A stretch of DNA of 64,000 nucleotides from a virus. Positions 4,201 to 57,053 of this stretch are shown one piece after another; the stretch's first letter is position 1; the number at the start of each line of letters is the position of its first letter. The notes beneath the pieces are model-generated. The model had not been told where the DNA came from. It saw only the letters and a program-made list of their open reading frames with translations, and did no database searches. The stretch covers positions 1 through 64,000 of the IMG/VR virus record IMGVR_UViG_3300022226_000004; one strand, given 5' to 3'. A program made the position numbers and the translations under genes.

Positions 4201-7200
4201 TTGTTCGCTCTGGTATCAATGCGGTGCGCCTCATCCGTGCTCCGGGCCTGGATTTCCAGTGCTGCAATGTCCTCCCTGGTGACAGTGAGGCCTGAATCCG
4301 GTAGCACATCCCCGGCAGCGAAGGTTACGCCCTGGGTCTGGCTTCGCGCAAAGAGTTCCCGACCGATACGCTCATACCAATCAGCAACAAGCTCGACCGC
4401 ATTAGGGTCTCTTACATCCCTGAATTCCCTGGGGTCAGTCTCGAGATCCAAAGCATGCGAGCGAGAGGCTCGGAATAACGCCACTATAATCTTCGGAGCC
4501 GCATTAGCCTGCCATTGACCGAACTTGATGTGGCTGTCAACCCACGTCTGCATTGCCACCTTTGCTGGCTGGACAGCCCTGACGCCAATCTGCCGGACAA
4601 GCCCTTCCCAAATCTGAAGGGTATTGTTTACCATGGATGCGACCCCACCAAGGTTGAACACGTAATTGCGACCGAAATCAGTGGCCATGGATGACCTTGT
4701 CATGAATGACGCGAAGTCAAACCATGCTTGCCAGAACTTGCGCTCAGGCTTCTGAAGGTTGTCAGCGTTAGCGAGCCACTCACCGATCTTGTTCAAGGCC
4801 TCGTTGGCGGAGACCTGGGCAGCGTTCCATCTCTCAGTGTCGGAATCAAAATCAACCCGGTATGTCTCGCCGGCCGGAGTCGGAATGATAATGCTGGCAC
4901 CGTGCTGGGGTAGCCCGATCTTCTCCCATGCGGACGGGACAAAGATCTCTCCGGTATCCCTGGCAACTAGCTGCCTGAAAGCCAGCCACTCTGGATCAGT
5001 GGTCAGCCTGGTGGTGAACTCAACTCCGGTGTTCAAGACGTTAAACCGATTGATTGCCCGCCTGATCCTGCGGTTGGCTGTCCGATAGAGATGGGCAGCC
5101 CGATCAAGGTCACTCTGCACCCGCCCAGAGAAGTTGATAAGACGATTGACCTCGGCCATGTCGCCGGCTCTCAGACTGGCAGCCAAGCGCGTGGCAAGTC
5201 CGCCTGCCGCTGCGACAATATTGTCACTAGTGGCATAGTTCTGGGCCAGTAGCTCAGCCCTGTGCTTCGTGTTCCTAGCTAGCCAAAGCAAGGCAACATC
5301 CGTGATCACCTTTCGATCGCCACCTTCAAGTAGCCTAGGTGCAACACGCTGAATCACGGAAGCAATATCCCCTGCCTCAAATGTATCCGGTGACATCAGC
5401 ATGGCAGCCCCCTGGTTGTCACCCTCCATAGCTTCGGTCATCAGCTCCACCTTCTGGGCTATGCCACCAGAAACTTCAGCAGCATGCTCCCAGAATCGAC
5501 GCTCCAATAGCGCTTGCTCAACCTGTGACTCGCTTGCGCCATCCTTTTTGGCAGCGTTAATTGCAGCCGCAATCCCTGTGTCAATCTGAGTCCGCAGGGA
5601 TAAGCTGAGCGCCTCCTGGTCGAAGATGGTTTGACGCGCTGTGATAGCTTGCTCTACCAGTTCGGCAAACTTTGGCGAGGTCAGTCTTTCGGCAAGGGTG
5701 TTCCTCTTGTGCACCAGCCTGTCATGCTTGTGCTCATAGAACCTGATCCCGGACAGCATGTTGTTCTTCAGGACTTCAGCCAACGCAGGCGGCAGGTCCC
5801 GAATTGCAGTCTGGTAGGTTTGAGGATCCACGTTGAACGTAGCGCGAATCGCTTCGTTGGTCTCGTGTAGATTAGCTAGCCCGATATCTCGTTGCACAGC
5901 CTCAGTCACTTCGAAGCCGTCATTTCGCATGTCGTCCACTACCCGAGTGAACGCATCCGAAAGCGTGGCATTAGTCGTTGCGAAGATTGTCCCAAGCGAC
6001 CGTCGCGCCGGGGCCAGGGCAAAGCTGAACTCCTGCAGAACCTGCTGCTTAGTTAATGCTAAGTTGGCAATCGGTGCCCGCTTGTTGATTTCGCTTAGGG
6101 CGCCCCCTCTGGCACTGACATCGAATTCACCATTACGCAGCTTTGACAAGACGGAGTCGAAGAAGGCATCTCGAGACCGGTCAACAGATCTGAAAACCTG
6201 CTTGAGCGCCAACACGAATTGATCGAAGAAATTCTTCAGCCAGTCAATGATGCCAGACATCGTTGGGCCGCTCCTGGCTTTCGCTGCAGCCTCAGTAAGG
6301 TGATGGGCTACGAACTCATCATCGTTGATCAACGGGTAGAGATTCGCTAGCTCCGCTGCATTCGGCAACCTGGCGAATTGAGCTGACGTGATCTCGCCAC
6401 CATTCCGATCCAGCTCAGCAAGAAAGTCTTTGGTTCTTTGGTTTGCCTCAGGTGAAGCTCTGAGCGTCTCGATCTCCCTAGCCCTGAACCCAGAAACCTC
6501 TGCGCGAAATGATCGCGGCAAGAAGGTCGCGGCAGCATGAGCAAACTCCTCGGCAACGCCCGTTGCGGAACTGGAGCCAGCGGAAACCTTGATCAATCTA
6601 AGGGCATCAACAAATGTCCCGCCGAATTCAACAGATGAACCAACAACGGTTTGCCTGCCGGGCTGAATAACGAACGTCAGGCCCTCAAGATATTTCGGGT
6701 TCATGTGCTCCAGGAAGCTGATAGCTGTTTCCCTGGCAGAACCTGATAGCCCGTTATTAGGCGCGGATACTAGTTCAAGGATCTGATCCCTTCCAGTTGC
6801 CGGTTGGTTCAGTAAGGCCGGGTCAACGGAGCTGAGCTGAACAACCTCTGTCCCGCGCAAAGAAGCCAACGCATTGGGATCAACCCGCAGCGTATCCCTG
6901 ATCGCCTCTATGGCGTCAGCTATTGCACCCTGAACATCCTCGCCAGGTGCAATGGGCGTTAGTAATTCAACGATCTTCTCCCTTGCCTCAACCCAGAAGG
7001 CATCATCTTCAGGGTCGTGATCAGTTAGTGCATCCGCAAGCTCTGGATCTATCTGCTCGAACCGCTGGACAAAGCTTGTGGCTATACGGGCATCGCTCCG
7101 CGCCTCAGCATTTGTGAACCCTGGGGACTCTACTTCTGCAGGCTCGGCGCCAAAACCCTGCTCCGACAGCTGCGTGGTAGCCTCTTGCTCATCCTCTGCC

Positions 7201-47942: not shown

Positions 47943-48134
47943 ATGAACCTTCTAATCGCTTCCAAAAACGGGGAAATCACGTCTGTCCTCGCTCTCCAAA
48001 TCCCTTGGATACCAACCTTCAACCCAAACCTCTGTGACCGCATCACCTTCATCCAAAACTTCCGCCCCGGTGACTGGACCAATTCTCCCGTCCTCAAAAT
48101 CTTCTCAGACGCCTTCCCTTCAACTAGCCATTAG
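47943..48134 (+). CDS. small protein, paralog B
   Basis: SKNGEITSV..NP..DRIT.I..F.P.DWTNS pattern shared with paralog A. Confidence 0.6.
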   Translation: MNLLIASKNGEITSVLALQIPWIPTFNPNLCDRITFIQNFRPGDWTNSPVLKIFSDAFPSTSH

Positions 48135-48254
48135 TATGTGTGAGAGGGACCCATTATACTGAAAAGCGACTACCCCCCTTACCCCTCCCCCTACCGGGTT
48201 GTAGATATACTTGTCGATTACGCAAGTAACCTAATGGCAGCACGTTACAAAAGT

Positions 48255-48872
48255 CTCCCTTGACTAGATCCTATTCGTCGAGTTAGGGAGCTGCAGCGAT
48301 TTCAGGCTCATTGGAGCAGAACGAAGTCAACGTAAACGAAAGTTTGCAAGGCCAGACAGGAGTCTGCAAACCAAGCAAACCCAAATGCTGGACGCCACTA
48401 GCATGGGGTTGATCAGAATCGGATGGCCAAGCGGCCGCGACGTTGAATCACGTATCTCTCGACTTCGCTCTATCTGAGAGCAATGAGACGCGAGGAGCAC
48501 GCAAGCCAAGATCCGAGGGCGCCAACTGCTGGAAGTGTTGGTTGCACGCGACGAGAAGATCGCCAGCCACTAGGTGTGGGCCGAAACGAGTCGAGAGACT
48601 GCCGGTGAACTAGGTTTATCCTAGCATGAGCGAAGCGGGGCGTGACGTAAAGGTTAGGTGTAGTGAGCACGGGAGTCGGGAGACAAGCCTCTCACGGATT
48701 CAATGGAACGGGTTAAAGGCCAAAGGGCTTGCTTATGGTGAGCCGGTCAACCAAGAGCGGAACAGTGGTTCAAGACTGCAACAAGATTCCGCCAAGGGAA
48801 AGGCCTTTGTTCAACCGTTCCTTGAACCGAGTCGCAGAAAGCAAGTCATGGTGACAAGCGGGCGATTCGGTT
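48255..48872 (+). ncRNA. candidate large structured non-coding RNA (~620 nt)
   Basis: Nested long-range helices and many local hairpins including a GAAA tetraloop; G-U pairs favour the plus strand. Confidence 0.6.
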
Positions 48873-48884
48873 ACAAGGAATGAT

Positions 48885-52020: not shown

Positions 52021-52808
52021 TACTGAACGACCTTGACCGAACGGCAGTCAACATCACCATGATTTGCGCGGCAAAACTGGATGACAACCTGCTCACCGTT
52101 AATTTCGGGGCAGGGTGGTGGATGACACTGAAATACAGCACCATTGATGGCGCGTATGCGGACTGGCATAGGATCACTGACATAATGGACGATAAGGAGT
52201 ATGAAAGAAAATACTGATCAACAGTGGTGGATTATCCACCTGCGTTCCGGGGAAGCGATAAAGTTCTTCGGAGCCGTGCAGATAGAGTTCGAGCCCGGTG
52301 GTGAGCTCAAGAGATTTAGCTGGAAACAATTTGTCATCAACAAAGGAGACACTGCGTTGATCTATATCAATCCCGAGGATGTAGCCGCGATAACAGCGAT
52401 AGCGGAAGGTGAGTCATGAGACTATTCTACTGCGATCACAATCACAAGGCCACTGAGGTCAGGCTATTGCCTTGCGGTGGTGGGGGCTACGTTCAGTGTT
52501 GCGAGAGGCACTACAAGAAGGAGATGCACTATCGTTTCTCTCGCTTCATGCAAGAGGAGGTGCCGTATGAGTTCCCTTTATGGCGAGACCTCAAGGTGGT
52601 GGAGTGATGACACCTCAAGAAGATATTGAGCAGGTGATGGCCATCGAGGAAGTGGCCATGGTTGAAGACCGGGAGGAATACTTGGCATGCCTCAATGGTA
52701 AGCCAATGGCTGAGCGGCATACCGAACGCGAGGTCAGGGATGGTTGCATCCTAGTGAATCATGTTTACCTTTTTAGAAAGACCCGTAACCCGTGAGTGCG
52801 GTAACAAG

Positions 52809-53032
52809 GCGTGGGTTCTTGGATTGCCCTTCATACTTGCGACGCGTGACGCAAGGCCAACCACTGGGATCACGCAATTACTTTCGGCAGGACATACACT
52901 GTCGTCAGCAGGCTCCCTTCGGGGTCGAGCTGACATGCGTGAGTGCGCAATCCCGTGGGCAAACCACGGACAAGAAACGCTGAGACGAACAACAACAAGC
53001 TGATTAGGGGTGCCGCATCAACACGGCACCCC
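52809..53032 (+). ncRNA. candidate structured RNA (~220 nt)
   Basis: Nested helices, C(UUCG)G hairpin, GCAAA-loop hairpin, terminal 9-bp hairpin. Confidence 0.55.
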
Positions 53033-53842
53033 GTTACTACAATGACAACACTGACATGGATTCTAATGATCATCTTCACTGGCATCGCAGCCCGCCTAAC
53101 GGTGAGAGCCAAGCAGTATGATGCTCGACACAAAGGCAAGAAGCACAAAACATTGCGACTGACATGAAGGACATCGTGGCGGTCGCGATTGCGTTCCTGT
53201 TTGTGGCACTGGCTTTCCTGCTAGTGCTACAAGTTCAGGAAATCACGGAGGAGCAAGGGGCCAAGGAATGGGAGCAGCTAATCAAATGAAACGGAAACTG
53301 ACAGACGCTGAGAAGAACATGCGGGAGTGGATAAAGCAGCACAACAAGCGCAAATGGGCGGACATCAAGCGCCGCAAGAAGTTTGTGCCGCTGCCAGCCC
53401 ACCAAGAAGTAACACTCAAATGAAGGCATGAGTTATGAACCCTGACGAAGTGGTGGCAACGCTGTTCGAAACACCATTCGGGCAGTATTGGGAGGTTCAT
53501 GCACGGGACGGACAGAAACTCGGTGAGGTAGCCGGAACAGTGGTTACTGACGCGCAATTACACTTGCTCTTGGATGAGAGAGCCGTCGAAGAGCACGGGT
53601 CTGTTCGGATCCTGCAAGCAAGGCAGGTTATCTGCGGGGTGGAAAGGCGGTAGCACTGCGATGCATATCAGGATCAATACTTTCGCGGACGACGAGGATG
53701 AGGCTGAATATATCGTCGCGCAACTCACCAAGAAGATACATGAGCAGCTTCGCCGGCCGCCCGCCAAGTGCACGGCACCAGAGGACGCTGACGTGCTACG
53801 CAATCGCAATGGAACAATCATGGGAACCATCAAGGTAAGGAA

Positions 53843-56010: not shown

Positions 56011-56348
56011 CAGCTGCGTTATTGGCTGGGTGTTGGTTTTCGCCTAGGTCTGAGCCTGCATCTTTGTCTAGGTCTTGGTCCAGGGTTTTGACTGGGTCCA
56101 GGTCTTGGGCTGGGTCTAGGTCTGGGTTTTCGTCTAGGTCTGGGTCTTCGGCTGGGTCTTGGGCTAGGTTTTCGGCTGGGTCTTGGTCTTGGGCTAGGTC
56201 TGGGTCCAGGTCTTGGGCTGGGTCTAGGTCTGGGTTTTCGTCTAGGTCTGGGTCTTCGGCTGGGTCTTGGGCTAGGTTTTCGGCTGGGTCTTGGTCTTGG
56301 GCTAGGTCTGGGCCTAGGTCTGGGTCTGGGTCTAGGTCTGGGGGATAG
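56007..56348 (+). CDS. Ser/Gly/Arg/Trp low-complexity repeat protein
   Basis: ATGA coupling to the Sm-like gene; dipeptide-periodic SRSWAGSRSG. Confidence 0.5.
   Translation: MTAALLAGCWFSPRSEPASLSRSWSRVLTGSRSWAGSRSGFSSRSGSSAGSWARFSAGSWSWARSGSRSWAGSRSGFSSRSGSSAGSWARFSAGSWSWARSGPRSGSGSRSGG
56092..56312 (+). repeat. 108-bp direct tandem duplication built of 6-bp GGTCT-like units
   Basis: Copies start at 56092 and 56200. Confidence 0.9.
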
Positions 56349-57053
56349 ATGGATGCAACCAAAAAATCAAGATATGAATCGTGTAGCTATTATTGTAATG
56401 GCCCTGACGGCAGCGTTCTTTATTACTGTTATCGGGAAAGCACTCTGGTCATGCACTTCCAGGCATCGCAACAATGTCACCCAAAAGAACAAACGTGACA
56501 GGCAGATATGGGAGGCCAGCCGGATTGACTGGGATGCACTGGCTAAAATGCCCATAGAGGAACGAGTGCGGCAAGTAGATAGTCTGCACCAAGCAGGTCA
56601 GCTAGTCGAGAGGGAGGCAGAAGATATATGAAGCCATGGAACTAACACTAACATTGCTTACTAGCGGGCGCGTCTCCGTGCAGTTCGAAGGCGTGACCCA
56701 CTGCGAGACCTCGTTGACCTATGAGGCCGGCGTAAAGGTAGGGCGAATCGCGGCTAATGATGAGCCGACACTCGGCATTTCAATGAGTGTCGCACCTGCC
56801 GCAAATAAAAGTGAATTCGATGCCTTCATTGAAGGCCTTCGAGATGGACAACAACAAGTGAACGAAGAAGTATGAAAGCACAACAGAATGAAGTTTGGGA
56901 TGCACTGTGCAGGCTCTCGAAGCAAGAGCGTTTCGTGGAGTTCTGCGTGTGGGTCAGCGACGCAAGCGAAGATGAGCTCAGGCTAGTGCTGATCGAGGTC
57001 TTGTCTGCGGATGACATGGTGAACTGGAACAGCAAAGTGAAAAGATTGAGACT

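What the first reader, a model, noticed from the sequence alone, without database searches (positions are those of the whole stretch)
52809..53032. Second compact multi-branched RNA structure inside the early operon
Seen: TTCTTG 52816-21 / CAAGAA 52971-76 and GATTGC 52822-27 / GCAATC 52947-52 close a junction holding CTTGCG/CGCAAG (52836-55) and TCACGCA 52870-76 / TGCGTGA 52936-42. The latter encloses GGCAG/CTGTC and GTCAGC/GCTGAC capped by CCC-TTCG-GGG. CCGTGG-GCAAA-CCACGG (52953-69) follows, then an A/C-rich linker and a perfect 9-bp hairpin (53007-32) before an ATG. Inference: a ribozyme, riboswitch or sRNA; with the 48.3-kb element it suggests an RNA-based early programme.
Basis: partly seen in the sequence, partly recalled or inferred. 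Interest (0 to 1): 0.75.

Follow-up and report, generated by a model that had tools for sequence, protein, structure and literature searches.

The report
Conserved phage RNA motif in early-gene gap
A 250-base gene-free gap among the early genes of an uncultured sediment phage folds strongly on the sense strand. It begins with a two-part sequence motif that recurs, one copy per genome, in at least seven otherwise unrelated phage contigs; it is probably a new regulatory RNA element, and its function is unproven.

Summary
The 246-nt ORF-free gap (52796-53041) folds better than all 200 shuffles on the + strand (z -3.4 to -3.75; - strand -1.5 to -2.0). No Rfam 15 family, tRNA or protein family matches.

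The new result is that the gap starts with a 19-nt block, CCGTAA(C/G)CCGTGAGTGCGG (52783-52801). It is followed by AACCACGG: an imperfect copy at 52859-68 and a perfect copy at 52962-69, the only + strand copy in the 77-kb genome. This pair of blocks, separated by 34-160 unrelated nucleotides, occurs once per genome in seven phage lineages. Those lineages share no protein. In none of the 10 chance hits in bacterial genomes is the 3' block present. The blocks can pair (CCGUG-A-GU / AC-CACGG), but they are invariant, so there is no covariation.

The only close relative (G001) has a longer, sequence-diverged, equally structured gap at the same position, before the same small membrane-protein gene.

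I read it as a new phage RNA motif inside a structured leader within the early operon. Its class (regulator, sRNA, ribozyme, riboswitch) is undetermined, and a DNA-level site is not excluded. The scan had not noted this motif on other DNA.

The parts
52607..52795 (+). Upstream early ORF (62 aa). Its last codons and its TGA stop (52793-95) lie inside the conserved 5' block.
   Evidence: Its G001 homologue lies elsewhere in that genome (L063:9161-9307) and is not next to the motif.
52783..52801 (+). Conserved 5' block CCGTAACCCGTGAGTGCGG, which defines the family. It contains TAA and TGA in two frames.
   Evidence: It is the only DNA in 52400-53450 that matches the relative G001: 26 nt at 92%. 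The exact pattern recurs in 5 further viral contigs, all of which carry the 3' block. It is single-copy in the genome.
52859..52868 (+). First, imperfect 3' block AACCACTGGG. It is orthologous in position to G001's CAACCACGG (spacing 57 against 56 nt). It pairs with 52789-97 with a bulged U.
   Evidence: model R1 aligns it, 22.9 bits. This pairing is the minimum-energy fold of the transcript ending at 52870.
52836..52855 (+). Local hairpin CTTGCG-N8-CGCAAG inside the variable insert.
   Evidence: Pair probability about 0.7.
52870..52942 (+). Branched domain: TCACGCA/TGCGTGA enclosing the hairpins 52886-903 and 52904-34 (UUCG-capped).
   Evidence: There is no comparative support.
52937..52948 (+). 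Partial second copy of the 5' block, GCGTGAGTGCGC.
   Evidence: GTGAGTGCG occurs only twice in 77 kb, at 52792 and 52939 (expected 0.29 per strand).
52953..52969 (+). Hairpin CCGTGG-GCAAA-CCACGG. Its 3' arm is the perfect 3' block AACCACGG (52962-69), which can pair with the 5' block instead.
   Evidence: It is the only + strand AACCACGG in the genome. Pairing of the 5' block with 52963-69 is the minimum-energy fold of the transcript ending at 52970, and costs 3 kcal/mol in the full-length RNA.
52974..52985 (+). Block GAAACGCTGAGA, shared with G001 only. G001 has a 13-nt hairpin inserted in it.
53007..53032 (+). Perfect 9-bp GC-rich hairpin without a U tract, ending 10 nt before the ATG. G001 has a 10-bp hairpin of different sequence at the same place.
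53042..53167 (+). Small hydrophobic ORF (41 aa) with a basic tail and no Shine-Dalgarno sequence. It is followed by a second 41-aa membrane ORF at 53164-53289.
   Evidence: The C-terminal similarity to the G001 ORF (K-H-x-T-x-RLT) gives E 0.002.

Best explanation
The gap 52783-53041 is a transcribed, structured stretch between genes of the phage's early operon. Its 5' part is a copy, with a partial internal duplication, of a previously undescribed phage-restricted RNA motif. The motif has an invariant 19-nt block (CCGUAAsCCGUGAGUGCGG) whose CCGUG-A-GU segment pairs with a downstream ACCACGG, closing an insert of any sequence and length. An H-type pseudoknot is possible, with CCGU/GCGG as the second stem. 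Proposed mechanism, inferred and not shown: in this phage three 'CCGUG-like' segments (52790-97, 52937-44, 52953-58) compete for three complementary segments (52860-67, 52870-76, 52963-69). Which pairs form is set during transcription, and by ribosomes that terminate at the UGA inside the 5' block. The resulting fold decides whether the small membrane-protein genes downstream, which lack a Shine-Dalgarno sequence, are expressed. The invariance of the blocks in phages that share no protein suggests that the core is read by a conserved host component (ribosome, RNA polymerase or a ribonuclease).
For: Shown: (1) The gap is ORF-free and folds better than shuffles on the sense strand. (2) The syntenic gap in G001 is 345 nt and diverged in sequence, with z -4.6 on + against -1.8 on -. 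It lies before the homologous small ORF but after a different upstream gene. (3) All 6 viral hits to the 5' block carry A-AACCACGG 34-92 nt downstream, against 0 of 10 bacterial-genome hits. A seventh lineage came from a relaxed scan. (4) There is one copy per genome. (5) Every copy is co-oriented with the gene that follows it. (6) It is not coding: the spacing between blocks is not constant modulo 3 and an indel separates near-identical copies. (7) No protein is shared between carrier genomes. (8) The sense strand has the lower z-score in 6 of 7 gaps. (9) Within the L066/L068/L085 group the 130-nt element has 2 changes, both in a loop or linker, against 7 per 100 and about 14 per 290 in the flanks. 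(10) Truncated transcripts adopt the block pairing as their minimum-energy fold. (11) In L127 the single change in the 5' block (C17G) comes with flanks that form an 8-bp stem presenting the block as a loop.
Against: There is no covariation: the 7 pairs are invariant apart from one U-A to U-G change, in the uncertain member L080. Invariance of the 5' block is partly a product of exact-pattern searching. In the full-length equilibrium fold of the window, pairing of the 5' block with the first (imperfect) 3' block has about zero probability. The motif cores of other members are no more stable than shuffles, with z about 0. The C17G change breaks one pair of the proposed second stem. No expression data exist. 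The upstream stop falls inside the block in only 4 of 7 lineages. The genes downstream are unrelated across members, so a common regulated target is not evident. One more distant relative (G005) gave no hit to model R1.
Confidence: 0.4

Rival explanations
1. It is a stable, processed or separately terminated small RNA that acts in trans, as a decoy or sponge for a host protein or as an antisense regulator. The invariant block would be the binding surface and the insert mere scaffold.
For: In the L066/L068/L085 group the motif is preceded by a hairpin. It is followed by a second hairpin and a classical intrinsic terminator (GAGGGGCGC...GCGCCCCTCTTTTT) before the next gene's ribosome-binding site, giving a discrete unit of about 150 nt. 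In L127 a 61-nt tRNA-like element ends 7 nt upstream, which could direct RNase P or RNase Z processing. There is no shared downstream gene and no shared phage protein.
Against: The window and G001 have no U-tract terminator. No promoter was found upstream of the motif. No host sequence complementary to the 19-mer recurs in 185,579 species genomes; there are only 10 scattered hits in coding sequence.
Confidence: 0.2
2. It is a self-cleaving ribozyme or a small-molecule riboswitch of a new class, with the compact conserved core as the catalytic or ligand pocket.
For: A small invariant core with a dispensable, variable peripheral insert is the usual anatomy of small ribozymes and pseudoknot aptamers. 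In L065 and G001 the 3' block overlaps the 5' arm of the next hairpin, as in the expression platform of a riboswitch.
Against: No Rfam ribozyme or riboswitch model scores at E<=10 in any member. The downstream genes are functionally unrelated. No helix covaries.
Confidence: 0.12
3. It is a DNA-level site, such as a nick or recognition site for a host or plasmid HUH enzyme, an origin, or a regulator binding site. The direct heptamers CCGTAAG and CCGTGAG and the inverted CCGTGGT would be protein half-sites.
For: It is single-copy per genome and invariant without covariation. The block reads as a tandem heptamer repeat plus an inverted copy. From memory only, GTGAGTGCG resembles the nick region of MOBQ-type oriT (GTAAGTGCG); this is a lead, not a test. 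The uncertain hits L077 and L080 lie near a gene that looks, from its sequence alone, like a REP-associated tyrosine transposase and near an integrase-like gene (neither was checked against a protein-family library).
Against: The spacing between half-sites varies from 34 to 160 bp, which does not fit cooperative protein binding. All copies are on the sense strand of the flanking genes. Folding is asymmetric between strands and favours the sense RNA. No carrier encodes a common candidate enzyme. The 32-mer has no match in 72,556 plasmids or 50,697 phage records at E<=10.
Confidence: 0.15
4. The window's multi-branched fold has no function of its own. The gap would be a spacer holding a hairpin that ends or punctuates transcription, and the two-block motif would be a selfish or hitch-hiking sequence.
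For: The interior is not conserved even in the nearest relative.
Against: A structured gap is kept at the same position in G001 although its sequence has turned over, with z -4.6. The blocks are conserved across unrelated phages. Substitution is reduced within the element.
Confidence: 0.1

Closest known systems
HK022 put RNA (cis-acting antiterminator that binds host RNA polymerase; PMC9378689)
   Same: It is a phage early-operon RNA that needs no phage protein and is read by conserved host machinery. It is known from few sequences (ten put sequences in that paper).
   Different: put is a fixed element of about 73 nt with two stem-loops in a V shape and a triplex, placed just after the early promoters. 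The motif here is one helix with a bulged A closing an insert of 34-160 nt, and it lies between genes. No sequence comparison was possible and nothing here shows antitermination.
Translational operator and leader pseudoknots of phage mRNAs (T4 gene 32 leader; MS2 coat-protein operator hairpin). Named from general knowledge.
   Same: A compact helix or pseudoknot in a leader. The helix architecture (5 bp, bulged A, 2 bp) is that of the MS2 operator.
   Different: Those elements are bound by a phage-encoded protein and are conserved only among related phages. The carriers here share no protein, and the 'loop' here is a long variable insert.
Long structured 5' leaders of type I toxin mRNAs (hok, tisB). 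Named from general knowledge.
   Same: In the window and G001 a leader of 250-345 nt with alternative folds precedes a gene of about 41 aa for a hydrophobic peptide with a basic tail and no Shine-Dalgarno sequence.
   Different: No antisense RNA, promoter or terminator was found on the opposite strand. Other members of the motif family precede unrelated genes (an HNH endonuclease-like gene by its sequence, a 139-aa protein, a 307-aa protein).
Candidate structured RNAs predicted in IMG/VR viruses (Fremin, Bhatt and Kyrpides 2023, PMC10690425)
   Same: Same data source and the same kind of object: intergenic phage motifs of unknown function, some placed consistently upstream of genes.
   Different: I could not check whether this motif is among their 10,006 candidates, because the supplement is not held. 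With seven lineages and no covariation it may not have passed their filters.

Membership tests
Any Rfam 15 family (riboswitches, ribozymes, sRNAs, introns, leaders) | Covariance-model score at or near the family's gathering threshold | tested here: not met
   No hit at gathering score in the 64-kb window. At E<=10, no + strand hit lies inside 52783-53041. There was no hit at the motif in G001, L066, L067, G002, G003 or L127.
tRNA / tmRNA | Cloverleaf or tmRNA architecture detected by ARAGORN | tested here: not met
   No genes in the window and none at the motif in the other members. L127 has a weak tRNA-like element next to the motif, not in it.
Protein-coding gene overlapping the gap | A conserved reading frame or a protein-family match | tested here: not met
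   No Pfam or PHROG hit for the four overlapping ORFs. The spacing between blocks is 0, 1 or 2 modulo 3 in different members. A 1-nt indel separates L066 from L085. tblastx against G001 finds only the 8-codon block.
HK022 put-type antiterminator RNA | Two adjacent stem-loops of about 70 nt just downstream of an early promoter, with antitermination through the zinc-binding domain of the RNA polymerase beta' subunit | tested here: not met
   The architecture differs: one helix plus a variable insert. The position is mostly between genes. Activity is not testable with these tools.
Riboswitch (any class) | A conserved aptamer upstream of functionally related genes, with an expression platform | tested here: not met
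   The downstream genes are unrelated across the seven lineages. Ligand binding is not testable here.
Self-cleaving ribozyme | Site-specific self-scission; a known catalytic core | not testable with these tools
   No known core by Rfam. Cleavage needs a bench assay.
Type I toxin-antitoxin locus | A small hydrophobic toxin ORF plus an overlapping or adjacent antisense RNA gene | tested here: inconclusive
   The small hydrophobic ORF and the structured leader are present. No antisense promoter or terminator was found. Toxicity is untested.
Phage-specific promoter or repeated regulatory site | Several copies per genome upstream of genes | tested here: not met
   There is a single exact copy. Matches with up to 2 mismatches are no more frequent than in shuffles: 8 against 5.6. 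There is one model hit per genome.
oriT / HUH nick site (MOBQ-like) | An inverted repeat followed at a fixed distance by the nick sequence, with a cognate relaxase | tested here: inconclusive
   The resemblance is recalled from memory only. The reference plasmid record was not available. The 32-mer has no plasmid match. No ORF is shared among the carrier genomes, so no common relaxase is evident; the ORFs were compared by BLASTP only and not searched for relaxase families.

The most novel reading that the evidence does not exclude
The two-block element is a new class of compact RNA pseudoknot that unrelated environmental phages have acquired independently because it acts directly on conserved host machinery. 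It could modify RNA polymerase or the ribosome, or cleave itself, without any phage protein. That would make it a portable RNA-only module of phage early gene control.
Probability: 0.25. Interest if true: 0.8.

Novelty: new variant of a known kind. Interest (0 to 1): 0.55.

Why it matters
Few RNA elements are known that let a phage act on its host without a phage protein; HK022 put is the classic case. A 19-nt sequence kept letter for letter in phages that share no gene, always on the sense strand and always single-copy, points to a conserved partner worth finding. It is also a small, synthesisable target of about 60 nt in its shortest form, suitable for cleavage, probing and pull-down assays. 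For this phage it marks where expression of a pair of small membrane proteins is probably gated.

Tried and rejected
- Rfam at gathering score and at E<=10, for the window and six other members: nothing at the element.
- ARAGORN: nothing at the element.
- BLAST of the region, and of a 32-mer around the block, against 50,697 phage records and 72,556 plasmids: no match.
- Neighbour proteins as probes. RadC-like gene: 55 loci, none syntenic. The 112-aa and 138-aa neighbours alone: none. The 63-aa neighbour against 5.8 billion proteins: only itself. terL gave the single close relative G001.
- An alignment of the 138-aa protein gave one more distant relative, G005, with no R1 hit.
- Sequencing runs: no RNA holder is listed. 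The DNA runs laid on the stretch showed no variant inside the element, so there is no microdiversity to test the helices.
- The metagenome scan added only redundant copies plus chance hits in coding sequence. L077 and L080/L086 have a 3' block with one mismatch and are treated as uncertain, because about 0.8 such cases are expected by chance.
- Relaxing CCGTAAN gave only 4 chance hits in coding sequence.
- A perfect complement of the 19-mer lies in a membrane-protein gene of an Acidiferrobacteraceae genome assembled from a metagenome, and in 7 related contigs. The match does not extend beyond the 19 nt required by the pattern, so I judged it chance.
- Recoding ideas (frameshift, readthrough, selenocysteine) were rejected: there is no slippery site, and the frame closes 2 codons after the UGA.
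- Protein partner: no ORF is shared by the carrier genomes at E<=1e-3.
- Literature search by sequence returned only unrelated primers. The supplement of the IMG/VR structured-RNA survey is not held. The RSF1010 record is not in the plasmid collection.
- MAFFT could not align the variable inserts, so I made no consensus structure of the interior.

Full report
**Context.** The window is the first 64 kb of a 76,991-bp IMG/VR virus record, G000. It has no relative among 50,697 deposited phage records at the DNA level and only remote structural-protein matches. Genes switch strand near 48 kb. From there on, small + strand ORFs with overlapping stops and starts form an early-type operon. The finding lies in the gap between ORF 52607-52795 (62 aa) and a 41-aa hydrophobic ORF at 53042-53167.

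**The observation.** RNAfold of 52790-53045 gives -97.5 kcal/mol and z -3.41, and none of 200 dinucleotide shuffles is as stable. The opposite strand gives z -1.97. With my own shuffles the whole gap scores -3.75 on + and -1.50 on -. In the ensemble the closing helices are weak: 0.23-0.26 for TTCTTG/CAAGAA and GATTGC/GCAATC, and 0.11-0.14 for TCACGCA/TGCGTGA. The CTTGCG hairpin has 0.7 and the terminal 9-bp hairpin 1.0. That hairpin is one of three perfect hairpins of 9 bp or more in the genome and has no U tract.

**Not a known RNA and not a gene.** Rfam 15 gives nothing at gathering score in the window and no + strand hit inside the gap at E<=10. ARAGORN finds nothing. The four ORFs that overlap the gap have no Pfam or PHROG match.

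**The nearest relative.** terL finds one related record, G001 (73 kb, terL 81% identical). In a 1,051-nt query around the gap, the only stretch of more than 20 nt that matches G001 is 26 nt at 92%: window 52779-52804 against G001 4404-4429.
- In G001 this block ends an unrelated 70-aa ORF.
- A 345-nt ORF-free gap follows, then a small hydrophobic ORF whose C-terminus matches the window's.
- The G001 homologues of the window's two upstream ORFs lie 5 kb away.
- So the unit 'block, structured gap, small membrane ORF' is kept while its upstream neighbour differs.
- The G001 gap folds with z -4.6 on + and -1.8 on - and has no Rfam hit.
- Apart from the 5' block, the two gaps share CAACCAC(T)GG at +76/+77. 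They also share GAAAC..GCTGAGA, followed by an A-rich stretch and a strong GC hairpin of different sequence 10-19 nt before the ATG.

**A family.**
- The exact pattern CCGTAANCCGTGAGTGCGG occurs in six IMG/VR contigs: G001 and five others. All six carry A(A/T/C)AACCACGG 34-92 nt downstream.
- The same pattern in one genome from each of 185,579 bacterial and archaeal species gives 10 hits. All look like coding sequence and none has the second block within 130 nt.
- In 241 million metagenome records it gives 23 hits. Only the copies of the viral members have the perfect second block.
- Two further metagenome loci (L080/L086 and L077) have a second block with one mismatch. About 0.8 such cases are expected by chance, so I leave them as uncertain.
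- Relaxing the first seven letters adds only four hits that look like coding sequence, so CCGTAAG belongs to the motif.
- Relaxing the last five letters adds a seventh lineage, L126/L127, with one change (GCGG to GGGG).
- A covariance model of the blocks finds one copy per genome in G000-G004.
- In G000 the only + strand AACCACGG in 77 kb is at 52962, 172 nt after the only CCGTGAGTG. GTGAGTGCG occurs twice, at 52792 and 52939.
- The window therefore holds a perfect 5' block, an imperfect 3' block (52859-68, the positional orthologue of G001's), a partial second 5' block (52937-48) and a perfect 3' block (52962-69).

**What the family shows.**
- The carriers are unrelated. All-against-all BLASTP of their ORFs finds no protein common to G000/G001, G002, G003 and G004. 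Only L067 shares terL (36% identical) and three other proteins with G000.
- The motif always lies in a gap and on the strand of the gene that follows.
- In L067 it lies within 75 nt of a divergent gene's start, so it sits at the head of a transcript.
- In L066/L068/L085 it is followed by a hairpin and a classical U-tract terminator.
- In L127 a tRNA-like element ends 7 nt before it.
- The genes downstream have nothing in common.
- It is not coding: the distance between blocks is 0, 1 or 2 modulo 3 in different members, and L085 differs from L066 by one base in the insert.
- The segment CCGUG-A-GU of the 5' block is complementary to ACCACGG. This helix is formed in 98% of cells but is invariant, so there is no covariation.
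- CCGU at the start and GCGG at the end of the block could form a second stem. That would make an H-type pseudoknot with a 3-nt first loop and the variable insert as the third loop. This is my inference. The L127 change breaks one of its pairs, but its flanks build an 8-bp stem around the same loop.
- The motif cores are no more stable than shuffles. The whole gaps are more stable, and the sense strand has the lower z-score in 6 of 7.
- Among three near-identical copies, the 130-nt element has two changes, both in a loop or linker, against 7 per 100 nt and about 14 per 290 nt in the flanks.

**How the window copy may work.**
- Folding of growing transcripts gives the 5' block paired with the first 3' block at length 52870, and paired with the second 3' block at 52970.
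- Forcing the block pairing costs 3 kcal/mol with the second 3' block and 7.8 kcal/mol with the first, in the full-length RNA.
- Several mutually exclusive pairings therefore lie close in energy. The upstream ORF's UGA sits inside the 5' block, as it also does in G001 and L070; in L065 the TAA of the block is used.
- I therefore favour a leader whose fold, set during transcription and by terminating ribosomes, gates the small membrane ORFs, which lack a Shine-Dalgarno sequence.
- The steps from 'conserved, sense-strand, structured' to 'gates translation' are inference.

**Rivals.** They are a trans-acting or processed small RNA, a new ribozyme or riboswitch, a DNA site, and a spacer with no function of its own. 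The DNA reading gains from the lack of covariation. It loses on the variable spacing, the constant sense orientation and the strand-asymmetric folding.

**What could not be done.** No run on record as RNA holds the stretch. The DNA runs showed no variants in it. The interior of the window's structure has no alignable homologue, and one more distant relative, G005, gave no hit to the model. Whether the motif is among the 10,006 candidates of PMC10690425 could not be checked.

**Verdict.** It matches no described family. Its function is open.

Noticed in passing
window 48160-48884; L063:384-1137 (G001): The long gene-free stretch at the strand switch has a counterpart of similar size in G001 (725 against 754 nt). 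The two share blocks such as CUCACGGAUU(C/U)AA(U)GGAACGGGUUA and UUCAACCGUUCCUUG but otherwise have little DNA similarity. Fold z is -1.8 for the window and -2.8 for G001, from 20 shuffles each. A 30-nt block at 48129-48158 is 90% identical to G001 354-383.
   Followed up: partly
window 48690-48700 against 52790-52796: The conserved CUCACGG in the 48.7-kb block is the exact complement of CCGUGAG in the motif's 5' block. This could be a trans contact between the two RNAs or chance (a 7-mer in 725 nt, about 4%).
   Followed up: no
L127:8429-8489: A 61-nt tRNA-like element (acceptor-like stem, one hairpin, T arm GGTTCGAATCC) that ARAGORN does not call. Rfam gives weak matches: tRNA-Sec 18 bits and mascRNA 14.5 bits. 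It ends 7 nt before the motif in an unrelated 52-kb phage contig.
   Followed up: partly
window 56013-56378: An array of 12- and 18-nt periodic repeats (16 overlapping copies of a 150-nt register), probably a repetitive coding segment.
   Followed up: no
window 53042-53289: Two consecutive 41-aa single-pass membrane ORFs with an overlapping stop and start (ATGA). The first has a strongly basic tail and the second an acidic one. G001 keeps both types but has a 93-aa gene inserted between them.
   Followed up: partly
L088 and L097 (Candidatus Udaeobacter genome assembled from a metagenome): The 19-mer with C at the variable position lies in a conserved leader-like sequence upstream of a secreted or membrane protein gene, in two soil Verrucomicrobia contigs. 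It has no 3' block and is probably unrelated.
   Followed up: no
L066:4550-4850; L068: A 96-aa ORF that looks by sequence like an HNH endonuclease lies directly after the motif and its terminator. A gene resembling a terminase large subunit follows it in L068. Neither was checked against a protein-family library.
   Followed up: no
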